Assembly (NCBI GenBank): GCA_038064855.1
Contig: JBBTSE010000002.1
Span: 72,815 to 136,814, forward strand
Source: Patescibacteria group bacterium
GTDB taxonomy: Bacteria; Patescibacteriota; Minisyncoccia; Ryanbacterales; GWA2-47-10b
Length of the DNA stretch: 64,000 nucleotides
Direction: 5' to 3'
Part shown: positions 47,210 through 62,805 of the stretch, piece after piece
How the letters are laid out: every line of letters starts with the position of its first letter
Numbering within the stretch: position 1 is the first letter of the stretch
The notes under the pieces: model-generated
What the model saw: only the letters and a program-made list of their open reading frames with translations
What the model was told of the DNA's origin: nothing
Database searches by the model: none
Made by a program: the position numbers and the translations under genes

Positions 47210-48841
47210 GTGCTTACTGACATGGAACGCAATCTCCGTACCTATATAGAAGACATTTTGCATCGCGAGATCGGCTCGGACGTGCCTTTTTCGGTTGAGC
47301 GCCAAGAAATGGAGGGTCGGGGAGACTATTCGTCAAACATCGCACTCGTACGCGCCAAAGTTGAGAAGCGTTTGCCTATGGCGGTTGCCGAAGATATTGC
47401 CTCACGCATCAAAGAAAAACATTTGCCTGTTTTCAGTAAGATTGAGGCAGCTGCTCCCGGCTTTTTAAATTTTTATTTTGACAAACAATACTTGATCGAG
47501 ATTTTGCGTGATTCTTTTGTGTCAGAACCAAAGCTCAAGCTCGGTACGGCATCGGTAGAATATATCTCTGCCAATCCTACGGGCCCCATGCATATTGGCA
47601 ACGCGCGGTCAGGGCCCATCGGCGATGTGGTCGCAAACTTGTTGGCAGATCGCGGATACAAAGTAGTGCGTGAATATTTTCACAATGACGCAGGCGCGCA
47701 GATTGGCCGCTTTGCTGATTCACTGTGGCATTGGTATATGATCGCGTGTGGAGAGCAGTCGGTGCTGGCAGAAGATGGCTACCAGGGCGAGTACATCCAA
47801 GAGATGGGCAAAGCCGTGCACAAAAAATACGGCGCCAAGATTTTAAAAAAACCCGATCTGTACAAAGAGCGCATCACCAAGGTTGCACTCGCAAGCATGC
47901 TCAAAGACAATCTGGCATTGGCAAAGCGTATGGGTATTGTCTTTGACAAGGTTGTCGCGGAAAGTGACCTTGAGGCGAAGACCAAACGCGCGCTCGCCCT
48001 GCTCGATAAAAAAGGATTGCTGACCAAAAAAGAGGGTGCAGTGTGGTTTACACCTAAAGATGACAATCTGGGCGAGCGCGAATCGGTCGTGATCAAGAGT
48101 GATGGCACCTATGTATATTTTGCGGGTGATATTGCGTATCACGCAGAAAAATTTAAGCGTGCTGACTTGGTGGTAGACGAGCTCGGTGAGAATCACGAAG
48201 GTCATGTACCCAAGCTTCGCGCAATCGCTGACGCGTTTGATTTCCTGCAAAAAGATTTCAAGGTAGTGGTGCACGGGCAGGTGACGCTCAAAAAAGACGG
48301 GCAGGTGGTATCAATGGCCAAGCGCAAGGGCAACTTTGTTACGGCCGAAGAACTGCTCGATACGGTGGGCAAGGATGCCTTCCGGTTTTTTATGCTGCAG
48401 TACGCGCCGCGATCCGCCATGACCTTTGATATGGATTTGGCGCGGGCAAAGTCAAAAGACAATCCTGTCTACTATATACAGTATGCGCATGCGCGCGCCT
48501 CGAGTATCCTCAAAAAGGCGGGATACCACCAAAAACGCAAGATAAATTATAAAAAAGTAGCATGGCCGCTTCTTGATACTGAGGCCGAATGGGCGATCAT
48601 TCGCATGATCTTGGCGTTACCTGATGTGATCAATCAAACTGCCGAAGATTTTCAATTGCAGCGCCTCTCGCGCTTTGCGCTCGATTTCGCGCGTGCCTTT
48701 ACGCATTTCTATGAAACGACGCATGTAATAGGCGAGCGCGCTGATCTTGAATATGCGCGCCTCGCGCTCGTATCACTCTTTCGCGAGACCATGCAACGGC
48801 AGTGTAAACTCATGGGGATTTCTACTCCTGATACGATGTAA
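47210..48841 (+). CDS. argS: Arginyl-tRNA synthetase
   Basis: SANPTGPMHIGNAR class I HIGH region plus the ArgRS anticodon-binding C-terminus. 543 aa. Confidence 0.92.
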   Translation: MLTDMERNLRTYIEDILHREIGSDVPFSVERQEMEGRGDYSSNIALVRAKVEKRLPMAVAEDIASRIKEKHLPVFSKIEAAAPGFLNFYFDKQYLIEILRDSFVSEPKLKLGTASVEYISANPTGPMHIGNARSGPIGDVVANLLADRGYKVVREYFHNDAGAQIGRFADSLWHWYMIACGEQSVLAEDGYQGEYIQEMGKAVHKKYGAKILKKPDLYKERITKVALASMLKDNLALAKRMGIVFDKVVAESDLEAKTKRALALLDKKGLLTKKEGAVWFTPKDDNLGERESVVIKSDGTYVYFAGDIAYHAEKFKRADLVVDELGENHEGHVPKLRAIADAFDFLQKDFKVVVHGQVTLKKDGQVVSMAKRKGNFVTAEELLDTVGKDAFRFFMLQYAPRSAMTFDMDLARAKSKDNPVYYIQYAHARASSILKKAGYHQKRKINYKKVAWPLLDTEAEWAIIRMILALPDVINQTAEDFQLQRLSRFALDFARAFTHFYETTHVIGERADLEYARLALVSLFRETMQRQCKLMGISTPDTM

Positions 48842-48880
48842 ACAGTTGCGTCTCTAAAAAAAATCGTTTAGTATTTCTCT

Positions 48881-49576
48881 ATGGATATGCAACAACCACG
48901 CAATGTTATTATCGGACTTCTCGCGCTCTTCGTTGTGTTCGGGGGAGTTGTTTGGCTTGGTACGAGCAAGCCTGCGACAAATGACGCAGGTACTGCCTCG
49001 CTGACTGATCAGGCCGCACCACCACCTCCAGAAGTATCAGTAGGGCCCGAGGTTATACAATTTCAAGGAAAAACTGTGAAAGCAACAATCAAAACACAAA
49101 AAGGTGATATCGAGCTCGAGCTTTACCCAGAGGTAGCACCGAAGACCGTATCAAATTTTGTCACTCTTTCAAAGAAAGGATTTTACAACGGTCTTATCTT
49201 TCACCGTGTAATCGCCGGCTTTATGGCACAGGGCGGTGATCCATCAGGCAATGGCACAGGCGGCCCTGGTTATGAGTTTGAAGATGAGATAAATCCCAAG
49301 ATACTCGGTGTACCCGCAGAGATGATCGTGGGATTAGAAGGCGCTGGCTACAAATATAACTATGATCTCAAATCAATGAAAAATGATGTCGGCGCTATCT
49401 CGATGGCAAACCGTGGTCCCAATACCAACGGCAGTCAATTTTTCATCATCACCGAGAGCGCGCAACCACATCTTGATGGTCGTCACACGGTATTTGGTCG
49501 CGTGACCAAGGGCATGGAGGTAGTCTTGAAGCTCGCCGAGGGCGACGCGATGACTGAGGTCACGATAGCTGAATAG
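48881..49576 (+). CDS. Cyclophilin-type peptidyl-prolyl isomerase with N-terminal membrane anchor
   Basis: [15 protein letters not shown]...[11 protein letters not shown] is a cyclophilin signature. Confidence 0.9.
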
Positions 49577-49595
49577 TCACAAAACAGAGTAAGTC

Positions 49596-49622
49596 AAAAA
49601 CCCCGCGTGCGCGGGGTTTTGA
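49596..49622 (+). terminator. Rho-independent terminator
   Basis: AAAACCCCGC-gtgc-GCGGGGTTTT. Confidence 0.65.
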
Positions 49623-49659
49623 TATTGAAAAAGGCGTTAACTTCGATTAGAATAAAAAA

Positions 49660-52600
49660 ATGCGAGATGAGCTTGGCGTCCTTGGATTCTGGACCCAGAA
49701 AAACATTTTTGAGAAAAGCATTAAGCAGCGCGCTCGGGCAAAGCGCTTTGTTTTTTTTGAGGGGCCACCCACGGCAAATGGCATGCCTGGCCTTCATCAC
49801 GTGGAAGCGCGCGCGTTCAAAGATGTCGTCGCGCGGTACAAGACTATGCAGGGTTTTTTGGTTGAGCGGCGCGCAGGGTGGGATACCCACGGTCTTCCCG
49901 TCGAGATTGGCGTTGAGAAGGCGCTTGGTTTTAAATTAAAACAAGAGATTGATGCGTACGGCATCGAGCCGTTTAATCGCAAATGTAAAGAATCAGTTTG
50001 GCTCTATACCAATCAATGGGAGAAGGTGACCGAGCGTATGGGGTATTGGATTGATACCAAACATCCCTATATCACCTATAAAAATTCATATATCGAATCA
50101 CTTTGGCATATCGTCAAAGAGTTTAACGCGGGTAAGCTCCTCTATCAGGATGACAAAGTGGTGCCGTGGTGCGCGCGTTGTGGCACGGCATTATCATCAC
50201 ATGAGCTCGCGCAAGGATATAAAAAAGTAAAAGATCAGTCAGTCTATGTACGCTTTCGTCTCAAGACGCGCAGAGCATCGCTCCTTGTATGGACCACCAC
50301 GCCATGGACGCTGCCTGCCAATGTGGCAGCGGCTGTGCATCCTGAGCTCGAATATGTAACTATCGATGACCGGGGCGAGCAGCTTATCATGCTCGGATCT
50401 TTGGCATCAAAACTTTTCCCGGGTCTCGAACCGTTGTGGCGCGAACCGGGCTCGAAGCTCTTGGGTCTTGAATACGATCCGCCCTATCCGGCGCCCGACA
50501 TTCCCTATCGTGTGGTTGGCGGTACTTTTATCACCGATCAAGAAGGTACGGGTATCGTGCATATCGCTCCTGCGTTTGGTGATGACGACCTCAAAGTAGG
50601 CAAACGTGAAGGATTGCCCACGTTTGTAACCGTTGATGATGCGGGCAAATTTACCAAGGCAGTACCGCAGTGGGAGGGGATGTTTGTCAAAGAAGCCGAT
50701 CCGCTTGTCGTAAAAGATTTGATACAAAAGGGGCTTTTATTCAAAGAGGCACTCTACGAACATGATTATCCGTTTTGCTGGCGATGTGATACGCCGCTTA
50801 TCTATCGTGTACGCAAGTCATGGTGGGTGAAGGTGAGCGCCGTGCGCCCCAAGATGGTAGAGGCAAATAAATCGATCAATTGGCATCCGGCACATTTGCG
50901 CGATGGGCGTTTTGGTCAATGGCTCAAAGAAGATAAAGATTGGGCATTTAGCCGCGAGCGCTATTGGGGCACGCCATTACCGGTATGGTCGTGCAAAGAG
51001 TGCGATCGCAAGGATGTGTTTGGCTCAATCGCGGAAATCTCTGAGCGCGCGCCCAAATCTACTAATACGTATTTCTTGATGCGCCATGGGTTTGCAAAAA
51101 ATAACTTACTTGGTATCGCAACCGCCAAGCTCAATAACTCATACGGTCTTATGCCGCGCGGCAAGACCGAGGTAAAAAAAGCGGCAGCGGGTTTAAAGAA
51201 GGCGGGCATTCAGCTTATTATTTCATCAGACCTTACGCGCACGCGCGAGACTGCGGCTATTTTGGCGCGCGAACTTCGGGTACCAGTTTTGTACGATGCT
51301 GACTTGCGTGAACACAACCATGGTGATTATGAGGGTGATGCTATCGAAGACATCTGGAAAAAGCATACGGCCGAAGAAATCCTCAAACATCCCTTTCCAG
51401 GAGGCGAGTCATGGGCAGATGTAAAAAAACGCAGTTATCGTTTTTTTCAAAGACTCGAGACATTACATAAGAAGAAAAAGATTTTGGTGGTGGGCCACGG
51501 CGATCCGCTATGGTTTTTAGAGGCGATTATGCGCGGCACGCAACAGCCTGATGAATTTTCACCAGCAAAATATCTCAAAAATGCCGATGTACATCGTATC
51601 GTACCCGTGGCGGTGCCGCGCAATGAGTTTGGTGAGACGGATCTTCACAAACCGTTTATCGATGAGTTTCCGGTAATGTGTTCGGGGTGCCTGACGCGCA
51701 TGGAACGTACACCTGAGGTTGCTGATGTGTGGTTTGATTCGGGTGCCATGCCATTTGCCGCACAGCACTATCCGTTTGAAAACAAAGCGCTTATCGATAA
51801 GGGCACGGCGTATCCTGCAGATTTTATCTCCGAGGCGATTGATCAGACGCGCGGGTGGTTTTATACGCTCCTTGCAGTCTCGACATTGCTTGGCAAAAAA
51901 GCTCCCTATAAAAATGTTATTTCACTCGGGCATTTGCTGGATAAAGAAGGAAAGAAGATGTCAAAGTCTCGCGGCAATGTGGTGGAGCCCATGGATCTTT
52001 TTGAAAAATATGGCGCTGATGCAGTGCGTTGGTATTTCTTTACTATCAATCAGCCTGGCGACTCAAAGCTCTTTGATGTTTCTGATCTTGAAAAATCAAA
52101 ACGAACATTCATCGATCTCTTTCTCAATACGCTCAATTTCTACGAGATGTATAAACCGGTCGCCAAAAAAACATCACGCAAGAATGCTCTTGATGCGTGG
52201 ATGGAGGCGAAGTCTGCCCAAGTAAGCGCCGAGGTCGCACGCCGCATGGATGCGTATGATGTGGTTGGCGCGGCGCGCCTCATCGAAGATTTTGTGGGCA
52301 ATGATATTTCACGTTGGTATGTACGCCGGTCGCGCGAACGCATGCGCTCAGGCGAGGGTGTTGAGATTTTGCGCAAAACGCTTTTGCAGACCGCAGTGCT
52401 CGCAGCTCCTTTTGTGCCGTTTACCGCGGAGATCGTATACCGAGCTGCCGGCGGCAAGCGCGAGAGCGTGCATCTTGAGGATTGGCCAAAGAAACGCGCG
52501 CATAACAAGGCGCTCGTGAGCGGTATGGACGAAGTGCGTGCGCTTGCCGCACGCGGCCTTGAACTCCGTGCGCGCGCCGGTATCAAAGTGCGCCAGCCGC

Positions 52601-52959
52601 TTGCGTCCCTTATGGTTAAAGGCATTACCGTGCGTGATGCATCTCTTCTCGATATTTTAAAAGAAGAACTCAATGTCAAAGATGTGGTGGTCAATAAAAA
52701 ATTAACAGAAGATGCGGCACTCGATACCGTAATATCACCCGAACTCAAAGAAGAAGGCGAGGTGCGTGAGCTTATCCGTTTTGCTCAAGACGCTCGTAAA
52801 AAGGCAGGTCTCCAGCCGCTCGATACGGTAACGCTCACTATTACGGGCAATTTTTCCGCAGCCGCACTCGCGGCCATCAAAAAGGGCACGCGCGCCAAGC
52901 GTCTGGAAGTTGCCGATACAAACAAAGGCCCCAGTGTTGTCTCGGTCGAAAAGGTGTAG
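49660..52959 (+). CDS. ileS: Isoleucyl-tRNA synthetase with an embedded histidine-phosphatase (PGAM-like) domain
   Basis: WAFSRERYWGTPLP (IleRS WCISRQRYWG-like) and KMSKS present. Between WSCKEC and CSGC...DVWFDSG sits a ~170-aa segment with LMRHGFAKNN, SSDLTRTRETAAI and VVGHGDPL (RHG / SSxLxRxxxTA / GHG motifs). Confidence 0.8.
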   Translation: MRDELGVLGFWTQKNIFEKSIKQRARAKRFVFFEGPPTANGMPGLHHVEARAFKDVVARYKTMQGFLVERRAGWDTHGLPVEIGVEKALGFKLKQEIDAYGIEPFNRKCKESVWLYTNQWEKVTERMGYWIDTKHPYITYKNSYIESLWHIVKEFNAGKLLYQDDKVVPWCARCGTALSSHELAQGYKKVKDQSVYVRFRLKTRRASLLVWTTTPWTLPANVAAAVHPELEYVTIDDRGEQLIMLGSLASKLFPGLEPLWREPGSKLLGLEYDPPYPAPDIPYRVVGGTFITDQEGTGIVHIAPAFGDDDLKVGKREGLPTFVTVDDAGKFTKAVPQWEGMFVKEADPLVVKDLIQKGLLFKEALYEHDYPFCWRCDTPLIYRVRKSWWVKVSAVRPKMVEANKSINWHPAHLRDGRFGQWLKEDKDWAFSRERYWGTPLPVWSCKECDRKDVFGSIAEISERAPKSTNTYFLMRHGFAKNNLLGIATAKLNNSYGLMPRGKTEVKKAAAGLKKAGIQLIISSDLTRTRETAAILARELRVPVLYDADLREHNHGDYEGDAIEDIWKKHTAEEILKHPFPGGESWADVKKRSYRFFQRLETLHKKKKILVVGHGDPLWFLEAIMRGTQQPDEFSPAKYLKNADVHRIVPVAVPRNEFGETDLHKPFIDEFPVMCSGCLTRMERTPEVADVWFDSGAMPFAAQHYPFENKALIDKGTAYPADFISEAIDQTRGWFYTLLAVSTLLGKKAPYKNVISLGHLLDKEGKKMSKSRGNVVEPMDLFEKYGADAVRWYFFTINQPGDSKLFDVSDLEKSKRTFIDLFLNTLNFYEMYKPVAKKTSRKNALDAWMEAKSAQVSAEVARRMDAYDVVGAARLIEDFVGNDISRWYVRRSRERMRSGEGVEILRKTLLQTAVLAAPFVPFTAEIVYRAAGGKRESVHLEDWPKKRAHNKALVSGMDEVRALAARGLELRARAGIKVRQPLASLMVKGITVRDASLLDILKEELNVKDVVVNKKLTEDAALDTVISPELKEEGEVRELIRFAQDARKKAGLQPLDTVTLTITGNFSAAALAAIKKGTRAKRLEVADTNKGPSVVSVEKV

Positions 52960-52961
52960 TC

Positions 52962-53531
52962 ATGACCGGGTACTACGGCACCGATGCCATTATACTTGCT
53001 TCGCGCGAGCGGGGGGAGGCTGACGCGTATCTTACTTTTTTTACTAAAGACTTGGGTCGCGTGAGCGCGATTGCTACGGGCGTGCGTCTTGCTAAGTCAA
53101 AGCTTCGTGGGCATTTGAGGCTCTTTATCCCGTTGCGCTTGATGCTCACGCGAGGCAGTACCGTATGGCGCGTGATAGACGCGGAAGCTTTAGGGTCAGG
53201 CGATGAGGGAGCGACCGCGTATCACAAGCGCTGCGCTGATTTTGTATTACGCATGACGGGCGATGAATCTCCCGATCTCGATTTGTGGGACGCGATACTC
53301 GATATAGCAGGCGTACGATATTTTTCCGGCGAGATGCGCTTTAAGTTGCGTGTACTCGAGATTAGCGGGTTTTTGCCGGACGCCCCCGAGCAGAGTAAAT
53401 TTTTTACGGCAAAAGCGAGAGCATTTATAGCACATCGGGCGGATGATGCGCTCTTTGCAGATCACGATGAATGCACCGCGTTTGAAGAGGGCATCGAGGG
53501 GATACTACGCGCCAATCACATGCTATACTAG
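52962..53531 (+). CDS. recO: DNA repair protein RecO
   Basis: AIILASRERGEADAYLTFFTKDLGRVSAIATG is the RecO N-terminal OB pattern. Confidence 0.8.
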   Translation: MTGYYGTDAIILASRERGEADAYLTFFTKDLGRVSAIATGVRLAKSKLRGHLRLFIPLRLMLTRGSTVWRVIDAEALGSGDEGATAYHKRCADFVLRMTGDESPDLDLWDAILDIAGVRYFSGEMRFKLRVLEISGFLPDAPEQSKFFTAKARAFIAHRADDALFADHDECTAFEEGIEGILRANHMLY

Positions 53532-53535
53532 TGAC

Positions 53536-55431
53536 ATGGCGCTCGACGATCTACGGCGACGGCTTTTCAAAAAAGGCGAGGGGTTCGAAGACCGCGAGCA
53601 TTCGTGGCGTCTTCGCAGGCACAATACACAAGCACCGGTGTCATGGAAAGCGGAGCCCGTAGTCGAGGAAGATTCTATGCAAAAATTTCTTCGTAAACTT
53701 TTATGGTGGGGTATCGGTGGGGGGATAGGGACCATTGCGGTTGTTATGTTTGGATATTTACTGATTTCAGGGAAATGGTCTGTTCTCGGCGTTGATACGC
53801 GTAAAAATATCAATCTTACTGTTGAAACTGCCGACGACCCTATCGCCGGCAAAAAACTCGTGTGGCGTGTTGTGTACGAAAACAAAAATGATATCGCGCT
53901 CGACAAAGCAGTACTTGTTTTCGCATATCCGCCCATGTCACAGCCGTTGGCAGGTGAGTACATGAAGGGCGGCTTGCGCCCCGAACGCAGAGAGCTCGGT
54001 ACTATAAATCCCGGCGATAAAAAAGAAGAGTTGTTTTCAGCAATCGTGTTTGGCGCGCAAGATGAGGTTTTAAAGGGGCAGGCAAAAATCGAGTACCGAC
54101 CACGCGATTCGTCGGTACTACTCGCCAAAGAAACGCCGTATTCATCTTCGGTCAAAGGATCACTCTTGGGTCTTGAGCTCCTACTACCTAAAGAGCTCAA
54201 AGCGGGTCAGCAGATCGAAGCACAACTGTCGCTCGTCTCGAGTGCTGAGACACCATTTCGTGGTATATCGATTGAGATGATGTATCCTGACGCATTTGAG
54301 TTTATCTCATCAAGCATCAAGCCAACAAAAGGTACTACGATTTGGACGATAGGAGATCTGGGTAAGGGGGATACCTTTAAGCTTTCTATTAAAGGACGCA
54401 TCAAAGATTCCATAGCGCCCAAATCAATGAAGGCAAAAGTAGGTGTCTACGATCGTACCAAAAACGAGTTTGATGTTTTTACCTCATCGGAAAAAACATT
54501 TACAGTGACGCCACCGCTTTTAGTGACAAAACTTACTATTAATTCTGACGGCGATATTGATACGGGGGTATTGCTTGCCGGTGCGACGGTCAACGGTGTT
54601 CTCGAATGGCGGAACAATCTTCCCGTGGCCATTTCCAACGCTACGGTCGAAGTCGTGTTTGAGGGTGAGGCGTTTGATATCAAAACGCTCATGAGCGATC
54701 GTGGCGAGTTTGATCAGGGTCGCAATTCTTTGCGATGGGTGCCGGGGCGCATTCCCGAGCTTTTGGTGGTAGATCCGAGTGAGAGCGGTACTTTTGCATT
54801 TAGTATTACAAGTAAAAAAACGATTAGCGTGCGCAATCCTACGCTTGTGTTTCGTTCGACCATGCAGACGCGCGAACTTCCATCAGGATATGAGGGGGTA
54901 GATATTTCAGGTGAAGAACGGGTGACCTATAAACTTGCTACGCGCGCTTCGTTTTCTCAAAAAGGGTATTACTATGACTCGCGCATTCAAAACTCGGGTC
55001 CCTTCCCACCTCGCGTTGGGCAAGAGTCGACATACCTTATTGTTTGGTCAGTAACCAATGCGACCAACGATCTTACCGACGCCGTTGTACATGCGACTCT
55101 ACCTTCCTTTGTGCGTTGGAAGGGTGTTGTCGATCCGCCGTCGGGTGCACTTATCACCTTTGATGAATCAACGCGCGAGATATCATGGTTGCCGGGAGCG
55201 ATATCTGCAGGTACGGGTACTGCGGATCGCGCGCGTGAAGTAGCGTTTCAAGTAGCATTTACCCCATCACTCCCGCAGGCAGGGCGGCCCGCAGAGCTTG
55301 TATCTGCGGCAAAATTTGAAGCGCGCGATTCGTTTGCTAATATTACTATTACACAAGTAACAGATCGCGCCACTACCGCCCTGCGTGATGATCCGCGCGC
55401 ATTTCGTGAGGGAGGAGAGGTAGAAGAATAG
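53536..55431 (+). CDS. Large membrane-anchored extracellular hypothetical protein (beta-rich repeats)
   Basis: N-terminal TM (LWWGIGGGIGTIAVVMFGYLLISG) and ~600 aa of Thr/Ser/Val-rich repetitive sequence with no known family. Confidence 0.5.
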   Translation: MALDDLRRRLFKKGEGFEDREHSWRLRRHNTQAPVSWKAEPVVEEDSMQKFLRKLLWWGIGGGIGTIAVVMFGYLLISGKWSVLGVDTRKNINLTVETADDPIAGKKLVWRVVYENKNDIALDKAVLVFAYPPMSQPLAGEYMKGGLRPERRELGTINPGDKKEELFSAIVFGAQDEVLKGQAKIEYRPRDSSVLLAKETPYSSSVKGSLLGLELLLPKELKAGQQIEAQLSLVSSAETPFRGISIEMMYPDAFEFISSSIKPTKGTTIWTIGDLGKGDTFKLSIKGRIKDSIAPKSMKAKVGVYDRTKNEFDVFTSSEKTFTVTPPLLVTKLTINSDGDIDTGVLLAGATVNGVLEWRNNLPVAISNATVEVVFEGEAFDIKTLMSDRGEFDQGRNSLRWVPGRIPELLVVDPSESGTFAFSITSKKTISVRNPTLVFRSTMQTRELPSGYEGVDISGEERVTYKLATRASFSQKGYYYDSRIQNSGPFPPRVGQESTYLIVWSVTNATNDLTDAVVHATLPSFVRWKGVVDPPSGALITFDESTREISWLPGAISAGTGTADRAREVAFQVAFTPSLPQAGRPAELVSAAKFEARDSFANITITQVTDRATTALRDDPRAFREGGEVEE

Positions 55432-55468
55432 CGTTGGCATAATGCCACGCTCGTGCTAGGTTTTTGCT

Positions 55469-56764
55469 ATGACTTCACTCGAAACTATTGTATCGCTCGC
55501 AAAACGCAGGGGCTTTGTCTTCCCCGGGTCTGATATCTATGGCGGTCTTGCAGGTACTTGGGACTACGGTCCGCTTGGCGTTCTTCTCAAAGAAAATATT
55601 AAACGTGCGTGGTGGCGCGCCATGCGCAAGCCCCATATTTTCCCCCTTGATTCAGCGATTATATCAAGCGCTAAAGTGTGGCAGTCGTCAGGGCACACTG
55701 ATCACTTTACCGATCCACTCGTTGAGTGTCGCGTATGCAAACGCCGTTTTCGTACTGATCATATAGATGGTAGTAAATGTCCCGAATGCGGAGGGGTACT
55801 GGGCGAATCTCGCCAATTCAATATGATGTTCAAGACGCACGCGGGCGCCATCGAGGATGAATCAGCCGTGGCATATTTGCGCCCTGAGACCGCGCAGGGC
55901 ATTTTTATCAATTTTAAGAATGTCGTTGACGCGTTTCATCCCAAGCTCGCGTTTGGTATCGCGCAGATTGGCAAAGCCTTTCGCAATGAGATCACGCCGC
56001 GCAACTTCGTGTTTCGTTCGCGAGAGTTCGAGCAGATGGAGCTTGAGTATTTCTGCGATCCTAAAGATGCTGATCAATACTTTGCAGACATTCGCGCGAT
56101 GCGTATGCAATGGTTTTTGGATTTGGGCATCAAGGAAGAAAATTTGCGATTTCATGATTACGCGGCCGATGAGCTTGCGCACTATTCAAAAGCAACGACC
56201 GATATCGAATATCGCTTCGGTCTTTCGCAAGACGGTTTCTCGGAGCTCGAGGGCGTCGCTAACCGCACCGATTTTGATCTCAAAAATCATTTCCCAGGGT
56301 ATCGCTGGGCGGGGGACGACTTTACCAAATCTGACGCAGGATTTGTGCCCAATGTCATTGAACCATCGGTTGGCGTGGATCGCGCGTTTCTCGCGTTCAT
56401 GATTGATGCATATGATGAGGATGAGTTGGCGGGTGACAAGCGCGTGGTATTACGCCTTCATCCCAAGCTCGCGCCTATCACAGCCGCGATTTTCCCATTG
56501 GTATCGAACAAAGAGCATATCACCGCGAAGGCAAAAGAAGTTTTTGACATGCTTGGCCGCGAGTTTATGGTGCGTTGGGATGATATCGGCAATATCGGCA
56601 AGCGCTACCGCAGGCAAGATGAAATCGGCACCCCATGGTGCGTGACTATTGACTACCAAACACTTGAAGACGGTACGGTGACCGTGCGTGATCGCGATAC
56701 CGCAAAACAAGAGCGTATGGCAATCACAGAGATAGCAGGCATGTTTCAAGAAAAGCTTTTATAA
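55469..56764 (+). CDS. glyQS: Glycyl-tRNA synthetase (class II, dimeric type)
   Basis: Class II motifs (FRNEITPRNFVFRSREFEQME) and GlyRS N-terminus VFPGSDIYGGLAGTWDYGP. Confidence 0.93.
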   Translation: MTSLETIVSLAKRRGFVFPGSDIYGGLAGTWDYGPLGVLLKENIKRAWWRAMRKPHIFPLDSAIISSAKVWQSSGHTDHFTDPLVECRVCKRRFRTDHIDGSKCPECGGVLGESRQFNMMFKTHAGAIEDESAVAYLRPETAQGIFINFKNVVDAFHPKLAFGIAQIGKAFRNEITPRNFVFRSREFEQMELEYFCDPKDADQYFADIRAMRMQWFLDLGIKEENLRFHDYAADELAHYSKATTDIEYRFGLSQDGFSELEGVANRTDFDLKNHFPGYRWAGDDFTKSDAGFVPNVIEPSVGVDRAFLAFMIDAYDEDELAGDKRVVLRLHPKLAPITAAIFPLVSNKEHITAKAKEVFDMLGREFMVRWDDIGNIGKRYRRQDEIGTPWCVTIDYQTLEDGTVTVRDRDTAKQERMAITEIAGMFQEKLL

Positions 56765-56825
56765 ACATCTTTCCTCATGCTTTCGCCCCGCTTTCTTTTC
56801 GGGGTTTTTGTGATATGATGATGCT

Positions 56826-58100
56826 ATGAAATTTACCGAAAAGAAGTTTAAAAATGGCTTGCGCGCGATCGTCGCCCCCATGGAATCGACCCAGACGATT
56901 ACGATTTTGGTATTGGTAGGCACCGGTTCAAACTACGAGGCTAGAGACATCAGCGGCCTTTCGCACTTTCTCGAACATATGTTTTTTAAAGGTACTACCA
57001 AATATCCTAAGCCCGGTGAGCTCGACCGGCTACTCGACTCAGTAGGTGCTATCCACAATGCGTTTACTACACGCGAGGAGACGGGGTACTGGATCAAGGT
57101 AGACACCAAACAGTTTGATCTTGCTCTTTTGTTTGTTTCTGATATTTTGCAAAACGCGCTTCTCAAAGAAGAAGAGATCAATCGCGAGCGTGGCGTGATT
57201 TTAGAAGAGATGAAAATGTATTGGGACGACCCTCGTCGGCATGTGTGGTCGCTTTTTGAAGAGCTCGTGTACGGTGATAATGCGTACGGATGGGATGTGA
57301 TCGGTACTGCCGAGAATATTCGCACCATCAAGCGTTCGGATTTTTTGAAGTACTGGAAAAGCCAATATGTCGCACACAACACGGTAGTGACGGTCGCGGG
57401 TAATATATCAGAAGGCGAGACGCTACGCAAAATTGAAAAAGCATTTGGCAAGCTGCGTGTTGGCACGCCCGTAAAGGCAGCTGCGTACAAAGATCCAAAG
57501 TCCGGTCCACGCATGCGTCTTTTTGAAAAAAATACTGATCAATCACATATCGTGGTAGGTACGCTGGGGTATCCGCTCGAGAGTAAAGATCGTGTGGTTG
57601 CTGATGTGCTCTCGACTATTTTGGGTGGCTATATGAGCTCGCGTTTGTGGGCGGATATTCGGGGCAGGCACGGTCTCGCCTATGCTATTCGCGCGGGGCA
57701 TGATGCCTATCTCAAGACGGGTTATTTTGGTGCGTACGCGGGTGTACCGCATGAGCGCAGTATTGAAGTTGTCGAACGCATCGTAGGACACTTAGGAAAG
57801 ATCAAGCAGGGAGGCGTGACTGCCGAAGAACTTAAGCGCGCGAAAGATAACATCAAAGGACATCTTGCTATCTCGCTTGAATCGACTGACGAGGTCGCAT
57901 CATTTTTGGGTACGCAGGAGATCATGCTCGGTAAGATCAAAAAACCCGATGAGTTAATCAAAAAAGTTGACGCGGTTACGCGCCAAGATATTGCGCGCGT
58001 AGCAAAATCTTTGTTTCGCAAAGACAAACTATATCTCTCTATCATCGGTCCCAAACTTGAAAAAGGCCCGTATGAACAAATCCTCAAAAAAGCCCTATGA
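56826..58100 (+). CDS. M16-family zinc peptidase (insulinase-like)
   Basis: HFLEHMFFKGT inverted zinc-binding HxxEH motif. Confidence 0.88.
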   Translation: MKFTEKKFKNGLRAIVAPMESTQTITILVLVGTGSNYEARDISGLSHFLEHMFFKGTTKYPKPGELDRLLDSVGAIHNAFTTREETGYWIKVDTKQFDLALLFVSDILQNALLKEEEINRERGVILEEMKMYWDDPRRHVWSLFEELVYGDNAYGWDVIGTAENIRTIKRSDFLKYWKSQYVAHNTVVTVAGNISEGETLRKIEKAFGKLRVGTPVKAAAYKDPKSGPRMRLFEKNTDQSHIVVGTLGYPLESKDRVVADVLSTILGGYMSSRLWADIRGRHGLAYAIRAGHDAYLKTGYFGAYAGVPHERSIEVVERIVGHLGKIKQGGVTAEELKRAKDNIKGHLAISLESTDEVASFLGTQEIMLGKIKKPDELIKKVDAVTRQDIARVAKSLFRKDKLYLSIIGPKLEKGPYEQILKKAL

Positions 58101-59131
58101 GCCGTCATCCCCACACATCGATTGATATCTCAACAAGTACTCTCATTCGCCTTGCCTTGGTGATACTCGGGGTTGTTTTTCTATGGGTCATTCGTGACAT
58201 TCTGATGATTATTTTAGTGTCAATCGTGATTGCATCAGCGGTAGAACCCCTCGTACAGTGGTTTATGAAATGGCGCATGCCACGCGTACTCGCTACCTTG
58301 CTCATTTATCTTTCAGGGATGGCCTTTGTGATTGGCATCTTCTATCTGTTGGTGCCGCCGCTCGCGGGCGACTTTCAGCTCTTTTTCTCACAGTTACCCT
58401 CGCTTATCGAGACAGCGCTTGTGGGCTTTCAGCAAAAAGTTCCATTTTTCTCGTTTGATTTTGTCATCGATGCGATTCGCACCTCGACACTCAACGCTGA
58501 CCAATATGTGCGTGACGCGGTAGGTGGTTTCTTTAGCTTTTCGTCTGCCTTCTTCTCAGGCGTATTTTCGTTTGGATTCATTGTCATCATTTCCTTTTAT
58601 CTGACGGCACAGGAAGATGGTATCGCCGATGTTCTCCGTATCGTCACGCCCAAAGAATATGAAGAATACGCACTCAATCTGTGGGCGCGCTCACAGCGCA
58701 AGATTGGCAGGTGGCTCCAAGGCCAGCTTTTGCTCGGCCTTTTGGTGGGTGTGCTCGTATTTATTATGCTCACGGTATTGCGTGTTGAGCACGCGTTTTT
58801 GTTTGCGGTACTCTCGGCAGTCTTTGAGATTATTCCATACTTCGGACCCGTCATGGCAGCAATTCCCGCCATAGCAGTGACTGCCATCAAAGACCCGCTT
58901 TTGGGTCTCTTGGTCGCCGGTATTTATTTTTTGGTGCAACAAATGGAAAATCACCTGATCTATCCACAAGTAGTACGCAAGACGGTCGGTGTTCACCCGC
59001 TTTTGGCTATTATCGCGCTTCTTATTGGTGGGACGGTTGCGGGTGTTGTCGGTATTATCATTGCTATTCCTCTTGCAGTGATTCTTGTCGAGTATTTTAA
59101 CGATGTCGTTGAGCATAAGCGGATGGTTTGA
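58097..59131 (+). CDS. AI-2E family transporter (PerM-like)
   Basis: Eight TM helices and an AI-2E pattern. Confidence 0.8.
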   Translation: MSRHPHTSIDISTSTLIRLALVILGVVFLWVIRDILMIILVSIVIASAVEPLVQWFMKWRMPRVLATLLIYLSGMAFVIGIFYLLVPPLAGDFQLFFSQLPSLIETALVGFQQKVPFFSFDFVIDAIRTSTLNADQYVRDAVGGFFSFSSAFFSGVFSFGFIVIISFYLTAQEDGIADVLRIVTPKEYEEYALNLWARSQRKIGRWLQGQLLLGLLVGVLVFIMLTVLRVEHAFLFAVLSAVFEIIPYFGPVMAAIPAIAVTAIKDPLLGLLVAGIYFLVQQMENHLIYPQVVRKTVGVHPLLAIIALLIGGTVAGVVGIIIAIPLAVILVEYFNDVVEHKRMV

Positions 59132-60729
59132 TTCGGACCGACTCTATGGATAAAAAATTTTATATCACGACGCCTATTTTTTATGTAAATGCGGCACCTC
59201 ATCTCGGTCACGCATATGCTGATGTGATCGCCGACACGCTTGCGCGCTGGCACAGAAATCAGGGCGAGCGAACCTTTTTTTTATCAGGTACTGACGAGCA
59301 TGGAGCAAAGATTGTGCGTGCGGCAGAAAAGGTGGGCCTTTCTACCAAAGAGTTTGTAGAGAAGCATCGCGATGAGTTCAAGAAATTGCTCACAGCACTC
59401 GGCGCCCAGCAAGATGATTTTATTTATACATCAGATAGTGAGCGGCATTGGCCGGGTGCACAGGCATTTTGGAAAAAACTTGTAGATGCAGGCGATTTGT
59501 ATAAGGCGACATATAAAGGGCTTTATTGTGTTGGACATGAGGCGTTTGTCACCGAGAAAGATTTAGTTGATGGCAAATGCGTTGATCATAATCAAGCGCC
59601 CGAAGAGATCGCAGAAGAAAATTATTTTTTTAGACTCTCCAAGTATAAAGATCGTATCCGCGAGGCAATTGCATCTGACCAAATGCAGATCCTGCCTGCG
59701 AGTCGTAAAAAAGAGATTCTCGCATTTTTGGGAGAGGGGGTAGAAGATATTAGTTTCTCACGGCCTTCAAAAGATATTTCATGGGGTATCCCCGTACCAG
59801 ATGATCACGAACATACGATGTATGTGTGGGCTGACGCGCTGACAAACTATATTAGTGCGCTTGGATACGGGCGCAGTGACGATGCAAATTTTAAAATTTT
59901 TTGGCCAGCCGACGCGCATATCATAGGCAAAGATATTCTACGATTTCATGCGGCCATTTGGCCGGGCATGTTGCTCTCAGCGGGCCTTCCATTGCCACGC
60001 CGGCTTTTGGTGACTGGCATGATTCGTTCGGCAGGACAGAAGATGAGTAAAACGCTCGGCAATGTGATCGATCCGCATGAGTTTATCAGTGCCTACGGCA
60101 AAGATGCGTTTCGTTATTTTCTCCTGCGTGAGATACCGCTCGGTGAAGACGGCGATTTTACACGCGAACGATTTGCCAATGTCTACGAGGGTAATCTCGC
60201 GCACGGCATGGGCAATCTTGTTTCGCGCACGGCTGCCATGATCAATAAATATTTTGAAGGCGAACTCCATCGACCGTCAGCGGAGGCACTTGCTACTGTG
60301 CCTACGCGCCGCGTACTCAAGCATGAGGTGCTTGCATCTCGAGTATCACTCGACGGATCCGCGCTCGATGTGTATTTTGAACGAGATATCGCCGAAGAGT
60401 TCGGGCGTGCGATGTTTGAGTATCGTCTCACTGATGCTATCACCATGCTCTCCGGTTTTTTCTCGCTCCTCGACGGATATATTCAGGATTATGAGCCGTA
60501 TCGTTTGGTAAAAACTGATCCTGATAAAACAAAGGCGGTTTTGTGGAATGTGGCAATACATATCATTCGCGCCGCGCGCCTCCTCGAAGCGTTCATGCCC
60601 GAGACCGCGGCAAAGATGACGCGTGCATTTGGCGTGACGATTGAGACGAAAGAAGATCCGGTCACTCTTCGTGTCGTGTCAGGCGAAGCACTCTTTCCTT
60701 CAAAAGTAGATGGACCGAAGGCTGATTGA
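59128..60729 (+). CDS. metG: Methionyl-tRNA synthetase
   Basis: YITTPIFYVNAAPHLGHAY (HLGH) and KMSKTLGNVIDP (KMSKS) motifs. Confidence 0.95.
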   Translation: MIRTDSMDKKFYITTPIFYVNAAPHLGHAYADVIADTLARWHRNQGERTFFLSGTDEHGAKIVRAAEKVGLSTKEFVEKHRDEFKKLLTALGAQQDDFIYTSDSERHWPGAQAFWKKLVDAGDLYKATYKGLYCVGHEAFVTEKDLVDGKCVDHNQAPEEIAEENYFFRLSKYKDRIREAIASDQMQILPASRKKEILAFLGEGVEDISFSRPSKDISWGIPVPDDHEHTMYVWADALTNYISALGYGRSDDANFKIFWPADAHIIGKDILRFHAAIWPGMLLSAGLPLPRRLLVTGMIRSAGQKMSKTLGNVIDPHEFISAYGKDAFRYFLLREIPLGEDGDFTRERFANVYEGNLAHGMGNLVSRTAAMINKYFEGELHRPSAEALATVPTRRVLKHEVLASRVSLDGSALDVYFERDIAEEFGRAMFEYRLTDAITMLSGFFSLLDGYIQDYEPYRLVKTDPDKTKAVLWNVAIHIIRAARLLEAFMPETAAKMTRAFGVTIETKEDPVTLRVVSGEALFPSKVDGPKAD

Positions 60730-61549
60730 TATCCACGCGCATGTAAACTTCAACGCCTTTCGTGATGACGGCGATGAGGTGATGCGCCGTACGCTTGCAG
60801 GCGGTGTCGGCATGATTTTAGTCGGATCTCAATACGATACATCGGCGCGCGCTATTGAATATGCTGAACGATATCCTGAAGGTGTGTGGGCGGCGGTTGG
60901 CTTACATCCTATCCATGTGGGGGATGAGATTTATGTCGACGCGCAAGAAATATCAGCATCAGGCGTGCCAGGATTTAGCTCGCGTCACGAAGAGTTTGAT
61001 TACACAAAATACAAAAAACTCGCCATACATCCAAAGACCGTGGCGATTGGCGAATGCGGCCTTGATTATTTTCGTTCAGGTGGCACAGAGGTAGGGCGCG
61101 AAAAACAGTTTGAAGTATTGCGCGCGCACATCAAACTTGCGCGCGAAGTTCGAAAACCGCTTATCATTCACTGTCGTAATGCGTACGATGATTTGGCGCG
61201 CATTTTAACCGAAGAGCATGCGGACGAGGTGGGTGGCACTATTCATTTTTTTGCGGGCACATGGGCTGACGCACAAAAGTTTTTAGATCTTGGCTTCGGT
61301 CTTTCGTTCACAGGCGTTATCACTTTTGCGCGCGATTATGATGAAACCGTAAAAAACATGCCACTCGATCGCATTATGGTTGAGACTGACGCACCCTATG
61401 TCTCTCCCGTACCCTATCGAGGACGACGTAATGAACCTTTGTATGTAGAGGAAATCGCTAAAAAAGTAGCCGAGCTCCGCGGCATCTCTTTTGATGAAGT
61501 AGCAAAAGCTACAACCGAAAACGCAAAAAGGATTTTTAAATTGATCTAA
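60710..61549 (+). CDS. tatD: TatD-family metal-dependent DNase/hydrolase
   Basis: LIDIHAHVN..., GECGLDY and ETDAPY motifs. Confidence 0.9.
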   Translation: MDRRLIDIHAHVNFNAFRDDGDEVMRRTLAGGVGMILVGSQYDTSARAIEYAERYPEGVWAAVGLHPIHVGDEIYVDAQEISASGVPGFSSRHEEFDYTKYKKLAIHPKTVAIGECGLDYFRSGGTEVGREKQFEVLRAHIKLAREVRKPLIIHCRNAYDDLARILTEEHADEVGGTIHFFAGTWADAQKFLDLGFGLSFTGVITFARDYDETVKNMPLDRIMVETDAPYVSPVPYRGRRNEPLYVEEIAKKVAELRGISFDEVAKATTENAKRIFKLI

Positions 61550-61577
61550 AAATAAAAAGAGCCCCAGAATCTGGGGC
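61542..61577 (-). terminator. Terminator hairpin shared by the convergent tatD and minus-strand gene
   Basis: GCCCCAG-aat-CTGGGGC with a T-tract on the minus strand (AAAAATAAAAAGA on plus). Confidence 0.5.
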
Positions 61578-62747: not shown

Positions 62748-62805
62748 TGGTGAGGCGCCTTTTTCTTTGCAGAGAAACACTTTTTGGCGTACGATAAGAA
62801 AACTA

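What the first reader, a model, noticed from the sequence alone, without database searches (positions are those of the whole stretch)
49660..52959. Isoleucyl-tRNA synthetase with a complete histidine-phosphatase (PGAM-like) domain inserted in the catalytic core
The ~170 aa between the WSCKEC and CSGC cysteine pairs carry the histidine-phosphatase hallmarks in order: LMRHGFAKNN (RHG), SSDLTRTRETAAI, DLREHNHGDYEGD and VVGHGDPLW. These lie just before the DVWFDSG/KMSKS half of the Rossmann fold. Both catalytic His and the Arg residues appear intact, so the domain may be active. It is a continuous ORF with no frameshift, so this is a genuine nested domain and not a neighbouring gene. I am not aware of a described IleRS with an embedded phosphatase. 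Candidate roles are editing or hydrolysis of a phosphorylated or mis-acylated species, or moonlighting phosphatase activity.
Basis: partly seen in the sequence, partly recalled or inferred. Interest (0 to 1): 0.7.

Follow-up and report, generated by a model that had tools for sequence, protein, structure and literature searches.

The report
Isoleucyl-tRNA synthetase with nested phosphatase
This groundwater Patescibacteria gene encodes a complete isoleucyl-tRNA synthetase with an intact histidine-phosphatase enzyme folded into one of its surface loops, and related bacteria keep the same phosphatase either inside ileS (one to four copies) or as a separate gene just in front of it, a pairing I could not find described in the literature.

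Summary
ORF 49660-52959 (+) is one uninterrupted 1099-aa type-2 IleRS (TIGR00392 823 bits, cut-off 621). A complete His_Phos_1 domain (PF00300, E=1.6e-31) makes up a ~195-aa insert (aa 465-659) in the second CxxC...CxxC zinc knuckle, in the CP2 connective peptide. P. megaterium IleRS2 has ~7 residues there.

The main new result is that this phosphatase subfamily is tied to ileS. In 73 of 73 interpretable metagenome loci it is nested in IleRS (22) or is a separate gene upstream of an insert-less ileS (51, mostly -4 to +19 nt apart). This holds across three IleRS lineages. Other relatives carry 2-4 tandem nested copies.

The substrate is unknown, and the domain passes no curated phosphatase subfamily threshold. 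An editing role is unlikely because the CP1 editing site is intact. No paper describing this was found. I rate it a new variant of a known kind, of moderate to high interest.

The parts
49660..52959 (+). ileS: 1099-aa type-2 isoleucyl-tRNA synthetase with a nested histidine phosphatase
   Evidence: Continuous ORF. TIGR00392 822.8 bits against cut-off 621.4. Best PDB sequence matches are P. megaterium IleRS2 8c8w (E=4.7e-239) and T. thermophilus 1ile. The AlphaFold model has pLDDT 90.7 and pTM 0.84, and its body matches 1ile with TM 0.90 and 8c8v with TM 0.80.
49789..49800 (+). Class I signature motif in its non-canonical form GLHH (G44-L45-H46-H47)
   Evidence: Read directly from the sequence. 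116 of 121 relatives have GxHH and 5 have HxGH. The G/AxHH variant is linked to mupirocin hyper-resistance in IleRS2 (PMC10485003).
50215..50775 (+). CP1 editing domain (about aa 186-372), flanked by zinc site 1 (C171/C174 and C373/C376)
   Evidence: Matches isolated IleRS editing-domain structures 1wk8 and 1wny. WTTTPW 211-216, N221, H301 and D310 are invariant in 121/121. The four zinc-site-1 cysteines are invariant.
50992..51003 (+). First CxxC pair of zinc knuckle 2 (C445, C448) in CP2
   Evidence: Cysteine in 120/121 relatives. Aligns to the CxxC of PmIleRS2.
51052..51636 (+). Inserted branch-1 histidine phosphatase domain (aa 465-659)
51082..51090 (+). RHG motif: R475, nucleophile H476, G477
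   Evidence: R and H are invariant in 121/121 and in 46/46 domain copies across all architectures.
51238..51240 (+). R527, the second phosphate-binding arginine
   Evidence: Invariant in 121/121 and 46/46.
51310..51312 (+). E551, the predicted general acid/base
   Evidence: E in 76 and D in 45 of 121 relatives. E or D in 46/46 domain copies.
51496..51498 (+). H613, the second catalytic histidine
   Evidence: Invariant in 121/121 and 46/46.
51679..51690 (+). Second CxxC pair of zinc knuckle 2 (C674, C677)
   Evidence: Cysteine in 120/121 relatives.
51724..51969 (+). Second half of the catalytic core, from DVWFDSG (689-695) to KMSKS (766-770)
   Evidence: D689, W691, D693, S694, G695 and the KMSK residues are invariant or nearly so.
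52192..52857 (+). Anticodon-binding domain (aa 845-981) and type-2 C-terminal domain (DUF5915, aa 1020-1066)
   Evidence: Pfam PF08264 E=5.2e-21 and PF19302 E=2e-09.
47210..49576 (+). Upstream neighbours in the conserved block: argS (47210-48841) and a cyclophilin-type PPIase (48881-49576)
   Evidence: argS lies upstream of the phosphatase/ileS unit in 33 of 39 related loci.
52962..53531 (+). Downstream neighbour recO
   Evidence: recO lies downstream of ileS in 27 of 37 related loci.

Best explanation
This is a genuine bifunctional protein and a member of a Patescibacteria-wide IleRS-associated histidine phosphatase module that I could not find described.

The synthetase part is a normal type-2 IleRS. 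It has the GLHH signature, KMSKS, an intact CP1 editing site and a type-2 C-terminus, and it should charge and proofread tRNA-Ile in the usual way.

An independently folded branch-1 histidine phosphatase replaces about 7 loop residues at the tip of the CP2 zinc knuckle. It should hydrolyse a phosphomonoester by the family's covalent mechanism. H476 attacks the phosphate to form phospho-His. R475, R527, H613 and N482 hold the phosphate. E551 protonates the leaving group and then activates water.

Shown here: the domain is complete, well folded, under purifying selection and catalytically intact. The same subfamily is always found with ileS, either nested (1-4 copies) or as a tightly coupled upstream gene.

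Inferred: the phosphatase is active, and selection keeps it co-produced and co-located with IleRS because its function is coupled to IleRS. My best guess is that its substrate is a small soluble phosphoester, of the nucleotide, sugar or amino-acid phosphate type handled by its nearest structural relatives, and not aminoacyl-adenylate or aminoacyl-tRNA. The substrate itself is unknown.
For: Integrity of the IleRS part: TIGR00392 above cut-off; signature, KMSKS, both zinc sites and editing residues invariant; TM 0.80-0.90 to solved IleRS2.

Insertion point: and the domain borders.

Clade-wide conservation: 120/120 best hits; the insert-bearing Parcubacteria IleRS form one clade with 219-238 aa between the CxxC pairs, against 31-45 aa in all other IleRS2.

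Coupling to ileS:
- separate phosphatase genes directly upstream of insert-less ileS.
- 22 nested, 47 adjacent, 4 near, 0 without ileS, 7 undetermined.
- intergenic distance mostly -4 to +19 nt.
- the association holds with three IleRS lineages.
- 2, 3 and 4 tandem nested copies.
- first and second tandem copies form separate old clades, and both stay intact.
Against: No biochemical data exist and the substrate is unknown.

The domain scores far below the cut-off of every named NCBIfam phosphatase family.

The wider block smpB-argS-(phosphatase)-ileS-recO is itself syntenic (argS 33/39, recO 27/37). Adjacency is therefore partly inherited gene order, not proof of a functional link.

Two free-standing homologues were not next to ileS (L089 beside recO, L090 after an AP endonuclease).

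The phosphatase works as a separate protein beside unrelated IleRS lineages, so tethering at CP2 is not obligatory.

Histidine-phosphatase domains are known fusion partners of unrelated enzymes.

I had no model coordinates, so the position of H476 relative to the IleRS active site or the tRNA path was not measured.

The 80 loci were picked by similarity to ileS-adjacent members from a capped scan, so the 73/73 figure applies to that subfamily only.
Confidence: 0.6

Rival explanations
1. Hitch-hiker. The phosphatase is an ordinary housekeeping small-molecule phosphatase with no biochemical connection to IleRS. It sits beside or inside ileS only because the smpB-argS-ileS-recO block is an old, rigid piece of gene order in compact Patescibacteria genomes. 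Fusion into a permissive surface loop simply guarantees constitutive expression.
For: argS and recO are almost as conserved as neighbours (33/39 and 27/37) although neither has a known functional link to IleRS. The free-standing form functions beside three different IleRS lineages. The nearest structural relatives are metabolic phosphatases. Two homologues lie away from ileS. By fold topology, the N- and C-termini of the phosphatase fold lie close together, which makes it easy to nest in a loop (strands 470-475 and 644-647). This last point is inference.
Against: The link to ileS (73/73) is tighter than to either neighbour. Nesting, which requires a precise in-frame insertion, is found in at least two IleRS lineages at the same loop. 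The copy number has been expanded to 2-4 with every copy kept catalytically intact. A mere passenger would not be expected to show this.
Confidence: 0.3
2. Direct coupling in cis. The phosphatase acts on IleRS's own ligands or on IleRS itself. Possible actions are removing a 2'- or 3'-phosphate from damaged tRNA ends before charging, hydrolysing a nucleotide by-product, or reversing an inactivating phosphorylation of the synthetase (as HipA-type kinases impose on other aaRS; that comparison rests on my own knowledge).
Against: The top structural and sequence neighbours are small-molecule phosphatases, not protein or nucleic-acid phosphatases. The free-standing form is not tethered. No IleRS-specific phosphorylated substrate is known. 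The geometry of the model could not be measured.
Confidence: 0.15
3. Non-catalytic module. The domain serves as a structural brace or as a sensor that binds a phosphorylated metabolite to regulate IleRS, without turnover.
Against: All five catalytic residues are kept in 121/121 relatives and in 46/46 domain copies, including tandem and free-standing forms. Binding alone would not require the nucleophile together with the acid/base.
Confidence: 0.05
4. Assembly chimera or hidden frameshift joining ileS to a neighbouring phosphatase gene.
For: None was found. In related genomes the two genes are neighbours, which could in principle invite mis-joins.
Against: The phosphatase lies in the middle of ileS with both halves in frame. 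The same protein occurs in independent assemblies. 120/120 best homologues from many projects share the architecture. Composition is uniform. Selection acts on the insert. The model is confident.
Confidence: 0.01

Closest known systems
Bacterial type-2 IleRS (IleRS2), e.g. Priestia megaterium IleRS2 (8C8U/8C8V/8C8W) and T. thermophilus IleRS (1ILE), including the G/AxHH signature variant described in PMC10485003
   Same: Same enzyme family and domain order: HUP core, CP1 with editing domain, CP2 with a zinc finger, anticodon-binding domains and a type-2 C-terminus. The sequence match is E=4.7e-239 and the fold match is TM 0.80-0.90. The GLHH signature is the described non-canonical variant.
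   Different: About 195 extra residues forming a whole phosphatase replace about 7 residues in the CP2 zinc knuckle. Neither IleRS evolution paper that I checked (PMC10485003; bioRxiv 10.64898/2026.02.03.703510, which built a database of 96,219 IleRS sequences) mentions such an insert.
NCBIfam NF040702 'isoleucine--tRNA ligase, N-acetyltransferase domain-containing' (ileS_w_GNAT)
   Same: A curated precedent for an IleRS that carries an additional enzymatic domain.
   Different: The extra domain is a different one (GNAT, not a histidine phosphatase). Our protein scores 294.9 bits against a cut-off of 1999, so it is not a member. I did not examine where the GNAT domain sits.
Stand-alone branch-1 histidine phosphatases: PspA phosphoserine phosphatase (4IJ5), PhoE (1H2E/1EBB), CobC alpha-ribazole phosphatase (6E4B/3HJG), glucosyl-3-phosphoglycerate phosphatase (6S2Q)
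   Different: Only 23-27% identity. The domain is below every curated family cut-off: CobC 79 against 163, PspA 64 against 350, archaeal dPGM 71 against 225, GpmB 52 against 261. It is nested in, or coupled to, an aaRS.
Bifunctional RNase H / acid phosphatase of mycobacteria (NCBIfam NF005567; Rv2228c/RnhC type) and the MutT1 Nudix-histidine-phosphatase proteins (9CXX, 3FJY)
   Different: Those are end-to-end fusions, not a domain nested in a loop, and the partner enzymes differ. Scores are far below cut-off (68-79 against 326). What those fusions do rests on my own knowledge, not on a test here.
Rosetta-stone gene fusions and domain accretion in aminoacyl-tRNA synthetases (general principle; my own knowledge)
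   Same: Two proteins that are separate, adjacent genes in some genomes are one polypeptide in others.
   Different: The fusion is an internal nesting and not a head-to-tail join. It occurs with 1-4 copies and involves a catalytic domain not previously linked to aaRS biology in the literature I could search.

Membership tests
Isoleucyl-tRNA synthetase (TIGR00392 ileS) | Whole-protein score above the curated equivalog cut-off | tested here: met
   822.8 bits against 621.4, in two stretches split by the insert.
Isoleucyl-tRNA synthetase (TIGR00392 ileS) | Class I signature (HxGH or its G/AxHH variant) and KMSKS motifs | tested here: met
   GLHH at aa 44-47 and KMSKS at aa 766-770. Both are conserved in relatives.
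Isoleucyl-tRNA synthetase (TIGR00392 ileS) | CP1 editing domain with the Thr-rich motif and the conserved Asn/His/Asp | tested here: met
   WTTTPW 211-216, N221, H301 and D310 are invariant in 121/121. Matches editing-domain structures 1wk8 and 1wny.
Isoleucyl-tRNA synthetase (TIGR00392 ileS) | Isoleucine-specific aminoacylation of tRNA-Ile | not testable with these tools
   Needs an enzyme assay.
Type-2 IleRS (IleRS2) | [quoted passage not shown] | tested here: met
   PF19302 hit at aa 1020-1066. The best PDB matches are IleRS2 (8c8w, 1ile), far ahead of IleRS1 (1ffy, 8c9e).
MupA/MupB mupirocin-resistance IleRS (NF000257/NF000258) | Score above the curated 'exception' cut-off of 1900 bits | tested here: not met
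   750 and 771 bits. It is a relative, not a member.
Histidine phosphatase superfamily, branch 1 (PF00300) | Pfam score above the gathering threshold | tested here: met
   109.9 bits against 21.7, E=1.6e-31, covering profile positions 2-176 of 194.
Histidine phosphatase superfamily, branch 1 (PF00300) | Catalytic core: RHG nucleophile His, two Arg, a second His and an acidic proton donor | tested here: met
   R475, H476, R527, H613 and E551 are present. They are invariant (E/D at 551) in 121 relatives and in 46/46 domain copies.
Histidine phosphatase superfamily, branch 1 (PF00300) | The alpha/beta fold of the family | tested here: met
Histidine phosphatase superfamily, branch 1 (PF00300) | Phosphomonoesterase or mutase activity through a phospho-histidine intermediate | not testable with these tools
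   Needs an enzyme assay with H476 mutants.
Cofactor-dependent phosphoglycerate mutase (dPGM; NF038349, NF002901, NF001295-type models) | Score above the equivalog cut-off | tested here: not met
   71 against 225, 52.5 against 261 and 37 against 316 bits. 'PGAM-like' describes the fold only.
Alpha-ribazole phosphatase CobC (TIGR03162) | Score above the equivalog cut-off | tested here: not met
   79.3 against 162.9 bits. The free-standing relatives score 75-78.
Phosphoserine phosphatase PspA (NF045917) | Score above the equivalog cut-off | tested here: not met
   63.5 against 350 bits, although PspA is the best structural match.
IleRS with GNAT domain (NF040702) | Score above the cut-off | tested here: not met
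   294.9 against 1999 bits.
Known anti-phage defence proteins (PADLOC-DB) | Any model hit for the phosphatase domain | tested here: not met
   No hit for the nested or the free-standing form.

The most novel reading that the evidence does not exclude
The phosphatase is a new built-in accessory activity of an aminoacyl-tRNA synthetase. Docked at CP2 beside the catalytic core, or recruited there as a separate subunit, it would act on tRNA-Ile, on an IleRS-bound nucleotide or on phosphorylated IleRS itself. That would be a repair or quality-control step with no counterpart in described aaRS, and important enough in Patescibacteria to be kept with ileS through replacement of the synthetase lineage and amplified to as many as four copies.
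Probability: 0.15. Interest if true: 0.85.

Novelty: new variant of a known kind. Interest (0 to 1): 0.62.

Why it matters
Aminoacyl-tRNA synthetases are among the best-studied enzymes, and extra catalytic domains nested inside their cores are rare, especially in bacteria. Here an unrelated and apparently active enzyme is locked to IleRS across a large part of the Patescibacteria (the candidate phyla radiation). It occurs as a neighbouring gene, as a nested domain, or as arrays of two to four domains.

This gives a concrete and testable lead to an unknown requirement of translation or metabolism in these ultra-small, largely uncultured and probably symbiotic bacteria.

It has a practical side too. 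Automatic annotation often fails to name these proteins as isoleucine--tRNA ligase. That can make genomes appear to lack IleRS and can distort completeness or metabolic inferences.

Finally, it identifies the tip of the CP2 zinc knuckle as a site in IleRS that tolerates insertion of whole domains, which is useful for engineering.

Tried and rejected
1. Assembly chimera or frameshift: rejected.

2. Decaying or pseudo-enzymatic insert: rejected, because the catalytic residues are invariant and pN is far below pS. dS is saturated (pS 0.64-0.73), so the dN/dS values themselves are only indicative.

3. Assignment to dPGM, CobC, PspA, GpmB or the RNase H/acid phosphatase family: all are below the curated cut-offs.

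4. Anti-phage defence role: no PADLOC hit. The only PHROG hit is a family of unknown function.

5. A second phosphatase or a second ileS in the window: none found.

6. Literature: seven full-text searches pairing IleRS or aaRS terms with histidine phosphatase, phosphoglycerate mutase, CPR, Patescibacteria or Parcubacteria found no description. Two IleRS evolution papers do not mention the insert. A paper on HIT hydrolases and peptide-nucleotide antibiotics that mentions Parcubacteria proved irrelevant.

It therefore gave contrasts but no census.

8. The first metagenome scan with a broad alignment failed for lack of a conserved stretch. A tighter alignment worked.

9. Foldseek against afdb50 was unavailable.

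10. Tool output gives no model coordinates, so the distance and orientation of the phosphatase pocket relative to the IleRS sites could not be measured.

11. The trees are neighbour-joining on BLOSUM distances with midpoint rooting. They support grouping, but not a firm count of independent nesting events.


Full report
**1. The observation**

The ORF at 49660-52959 (+) is a single uninterrupted frame of 1099 codons, with no stop codons and no ambiguous bases.
- WSCKEC 443-448
- LMRHG 473-477
- SSDLTRTRETAAI 522-534
- DLREHNHGDYEGD 548-560
- VVGHGDPLW 610-618
- CSGC 674-677
- DVWFDSG 689-695
- KMSKS 766-770

Pfam places His_Phos_1 (PF00300) at residues 472-644 with E=1.6e-31 (109.9 bits, gathering score 21.7). 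It lies between two stretches of tRNA-synt_1 and is followed by Anticodon_1 and DUF5915. NCBIfam's ileS equivalog TIGR00392 scores 822.8 bits against a cut-off of 621.4.

One number needs correcting. 225 residues separate C448 from C674, not about 170. Of these, about 195 are extra relative to a solved IleRS2.

**2. Where the insert sits**

The best solved relatives are Priestia megaterium IleRS2 (8C8W/8C8U, E about 1e-239) and Thermus thermophilus IleRS (1ILE). The alignment to PmIleRS2 stops at query 464 / chain 478 and resumes at query 660 / chain 486. About 195 residues therefore replace about 7.

Both CxxC pairs (C445/C448 and C674/C677) are conserved in 120 of 121 relatives. The PmIleRS2 catalytic HUP core is residues 40-168 and 513-632 (PMC10485003). 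The site therefore lies in the CP2 connective peptide, at the tip of its zinc finger, about 30 residues before the second half of the core.

Across a sample of IleRS2 from other phyla the two CxxC pairs are 31-45 residues apart. In the insert-bearing clade they are 219-238 apart.

**3. Not an artefact**

- GC content is uniform across the insert.
- The identical protein is on independent ENA and Logan contigs from Hainich groundwater, with the same neighbours.
- Orthologues at 90% and 81% identity come from other assemblies.
- All 120 best full-length homologues (46-90% identity, 1100-1212 aa) carry PF00300 inside the IleRS. Their source names include Candidatus Ryan-, Nealson-, Wildermuth-, Taga-, Uhr- and Giovannonibacteria and Parcubacteria.
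- NCBI places Ryanbacteria, the closest named relatives at 62-63% identity, in the Parcubacteria group of the Patescibacteria.

**4. Both enzymes look functional**

IleRS part:
- The editing-site residues WTTTPW, N221, H301 and D310, the DxWxDSG motif, KMSK and all eight zinc-binding cysteines are invariant or nearly so.
- The full-length AlphaFold model has mean pLDDT 90.7 and pTM 0.84.
- Its body superposes on 1ILE with TM 0.90 and on 8C8V with TM 0.80, both normalised by target length.

Phosphatase part:
- R475, H476, R527 and H613 are invariant in 121/121 sequences. E551 is E in 76 and D in 45. N482 is N or Q in 114 of 121.
- pLDDT is 92-97 across the insert.
- Against the 90% and 81% orthologues, the insert has pN 0.06-0.16 and pS 0.64-0.73, like the rest of the gene. 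Synonymous sites are saturated, so the ratios are only indicative, but purifying selection is clear.
- Away from the catalytic residues the insert evolves faster than the core: 33% against 48-63% identity in distant relatives, similar to the C-terminal domain at 37%.

**5. The phosphatase and ileS go together**

An HMM built from the nested domains scores free-standing proteins of 190-211 aa as highly as it scores real inserts: 207-227 bits against 172-202 bits.

The genomic contexts are informative:
- On a 239-kb contig (L083) the order is smpB, argS, a 197-aa phosphatase, a 983-aa ileS with no His_Phos_1 hit, recO, a large CLIPPER-like protein and a class II aaRS. This is the neighbourhood of our window. 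The phosphatase stop codon overlaps the ileS start by 4 nt.
- L085, L086 and L088 show the same arrangement.
- Two other free-standing homologues were not next to ileS. One (L089) is beside recO and one (L090) follows an AP endonuclease.

I then scanned metagenome contigs with a profile of the free-standing form and classified the 80 loci returned:

| Arrangement | Loci |
|---|---|
| Nested in IleRS (single copy) | 22 |
| Separate gene, ileS starts within 400 nt downstream on the same strand | 47 |
| Separate gene, ileS 0.6-1.4 kb downstream | 4 |
| Undetermined (contig ends) | 7 |
| No ileS within the flank | 0 |

That is 73 of 73 interpretable loci. The distance between the phosphatase stop and the first possible ileS start is mostly -4 to +19 nt.

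The figure therefore describes this subfamily and not all histidine phosphatases.

**6. Three IleRS lineages, and one to four copies**

On a core-column NJ tree the insert-bearing Parcubacteria IleRS (PPTANG, GxHH signature) form one clade. The insert-less IleRS beside separate phosphatase genes belong to two other lineages:
- A very divergent PITANN...GVHH...NPWLDAG type (L083, L088). It is still a true IleRS, at 699 bits on TIGR00392.
- A PPFATG...HYGH type (L085, 949 bits).

The PPFATG type is sister to the IleRS of Peregrinibacteria (L014, L015). That enzyme has lost the zinc-knuckle cysteines and carries two tandem His_Phos_1 domains at the same position.

Among the 80 loci:
- The separate arrangement accompanies ITANN (25), PFA[TS]G (10) and PPTANG (2) types.
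- The nested arrangement accompanies PPTANG (14) and PFATG (1).

Other database proteins carry two (P0244, P0273, P0283, P0363, P0257), three (P0362) or four (P0241) tandem copies.

All 46 domain copies examined keep R, H, R, E/D and H. First and second tandem copies form separate old clades. Free and nested forms are interleaved in the domain tree.

These are rough NJ trees. They show that the association spans IleRS lineages. They do not fix the number of nesting events. Recombination through the conserved flanks (WGTPLPxW and DVWFDSG) could also have moved the cassette between ileS alleles; that is inference.

**7. How much does adjacency mean?**

The whole block is syntenic. argS lies within 2.5 kb upstream in 33/39 loci, smpB in 22/39, and recO lies downstream in 27/37. 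Gene order here is conservative in general, so adjacency alone is weak evidence of a functional link.

Three things go beyond synteny:
- The complete association with ileS.
- The repeated physical fusion at one loop.
- The amplification of intact copies.

**8. Mechanism**

The IleRS half should work as any IleRS2. The phosphatase half should use the family's covalent mechanism: phospho-H476, phosphate held by R475, R527, H613 and N482, and E551 as acid/base. This is established knowledge for the superfamily applied to conserved residues; activity was not tested here.

In this fold the first and last strands are neighbours (strands 470-475 and 644-647). That suits nesting in a loop. It also suggests that the active site, at the far end of strand 1, points away from the attachment point. 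This is inferred from topology and was not measured.

The domain passes no curated subfamily threshold: CobC 79 against 163, PspA 64 against 350, archaeal dPGM 71 against 225, GpmB 52 against 261. 'PGAM-like' therefore describes the fold only, and the substrate is unknown.

An editing role is unlikely, for two reasons. CP1 is intact, and histidine phosphatases hydrolyse phosphomonoesters, not acyl esters.

My estimates are:
- Active phosphatase functionally coupled to IleRS, most likely acting on a small soluble phosphoester: 0.6.
- Pure hitch-hiker: 0.3.
- Direct action on tRNA, IleRS or an IleRS-bound nucleotide: 0.15. This is a subset of coupling and is the most novel reading.
- Non-catalytic module: 0.05.
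- Artefact: 0.01.

**9. Comparison with what is known, and novelty**

I found no description of a histidine phosphatase nested in, or genomically coupled to, IleRS or any other aaRS. This rests on seven full-text searches and on two recent IleRS evolution papers, one of which annotated 96,219 IleRS sequences. Subscription-only literature was not searchable.

The proteins themselves are already in public databases, mostly under generic names such as 'class I tRNA ligase family protein', 'hypothetical protein' or 'histidine phosphatase family protein, partial'.

I therefore rate this a new variant of a known kind. It is real, widespread and apparently unremarked, with an unknown but testable function.

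Noticed in passing
window 49789-49800 (aa 44-47): The class I signature motif reads GLHH instead of HxGH. This is the non-canonical G/AxHH variant shown to give IleRS2 mupirocin hyper-resistance (PMC10485003). 116 of 121 relatives have GxHH and 5 have HxGH.
   Followed up: partly
L014:4001-4573 and L015:4001-4714 (Peregrinibacteria / Peribacteraceae genomes): An IleRS of about 1446 aa from a different lineage (PPFATG...HYGH) has lost the CP2 zinc-knuckle cysteines. It carries two tandem, catalytically intact His_Phos_1 domains at the same site.
   Followed up: partly
proteins P0241, P0362, P0244, P0273, P0283, P0363, P0257, P0281 (one search hits): These are IleRS proteins or fragments with two, three (P0362) or four (P0241) tandem His_Phos_1 domains. 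My own HMM resolved only three copies in P0241 and two in P0362. Several are partial proteins, so the full architectures are unknown.
   Followed up: partly
L083:6591-9542 and L088:4779-7646: A very divergent IleRS lineage (PITANN...GVHH signature; NPWLDAG in place of DVWFDSG) branches outside all other IleRS2 sampled, yet passes TIGR00392 (699 bits). It is the commonest partner of the separate phosphatase gene, at 25 of the typed loci.
   Followed up: partly
L006 (Candidatus Yanofskybacteria, PLYL01000007.1): This insert-bearing IleRS has the signature HIGL, with the fourth His replaced by Leu. Its phosphatase reads RHS instead of RHG and has Ser at the N482 position. It may be a degenerate or specialised variant.
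   Followed up: no
L089:288-920 and L090:1986-2606: Two free-standing members of the phosphatase subfamily are not next to ileS. One lies just upstream of recO with no ileS in between. The other follows an AP_endonuc_2 gene and precedes an unidentified ORF.
   Followed up: partly
window 47210-63999: Five aminoacyl-tRNA synthetase genes lie within 17 kb on the same strand: argS (47210-48841), ileS (49660-52959), glyS (55469-56764), metG (59128-60729) and leuS (from 62686, cut off by the window end). They are interspersed with recO, a large CLIPPER-like protein, an M16-type peptidase homologue and an AI-2E family transporter.
   Followed up: partly
window 48881-49576: The cyclophilin-type PPIase between argS and ileS has a hydrophobic N-terminal segment followed by a low-complexity Pro/Ala-rich linker, which suggests a membrane-anchored or exported isomerase. 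In genomes with a separate phosphatase gene, that gene occupies this position between argS and ileS.
   Followed up: no
database annotations of P0121-P0240 and P0001-P0013: Source annotations mostly call these proteins 'class I tRNA ligase family protein', 'hypothetical protein' or 'histidine phosphatase family protein, partial' rather than isoleucine--tRNA ligase. The insert probably splits the model match. This could make such genomes appear to lack IleRS.
   Followed up: no
L003, L005, L008, L013 (GTDB representatives): Insert-bearing IleRS loci sit in records titled 'uncultured Gammaproteobacteria' or 'uncultured Candidatus Saccharibacteria'. One search also lists Sedimentisphaerales and Humimicrobiaceae labels. 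In the core-column tree L005 and L013 fall inside the Parcubacteria insert-bearing clade (L003 and L008 were not tested for this), so the labels may reflect coarse name mapping or mis-binning.
   Followed up: no
window 51052-51636 against PHROGs: The phosphatase domain matches phrog_12933 (unknown function, E=4e-20), so branch-1 histidine phosphatases of this general type also occur in phage genomes.
   Followed up: no
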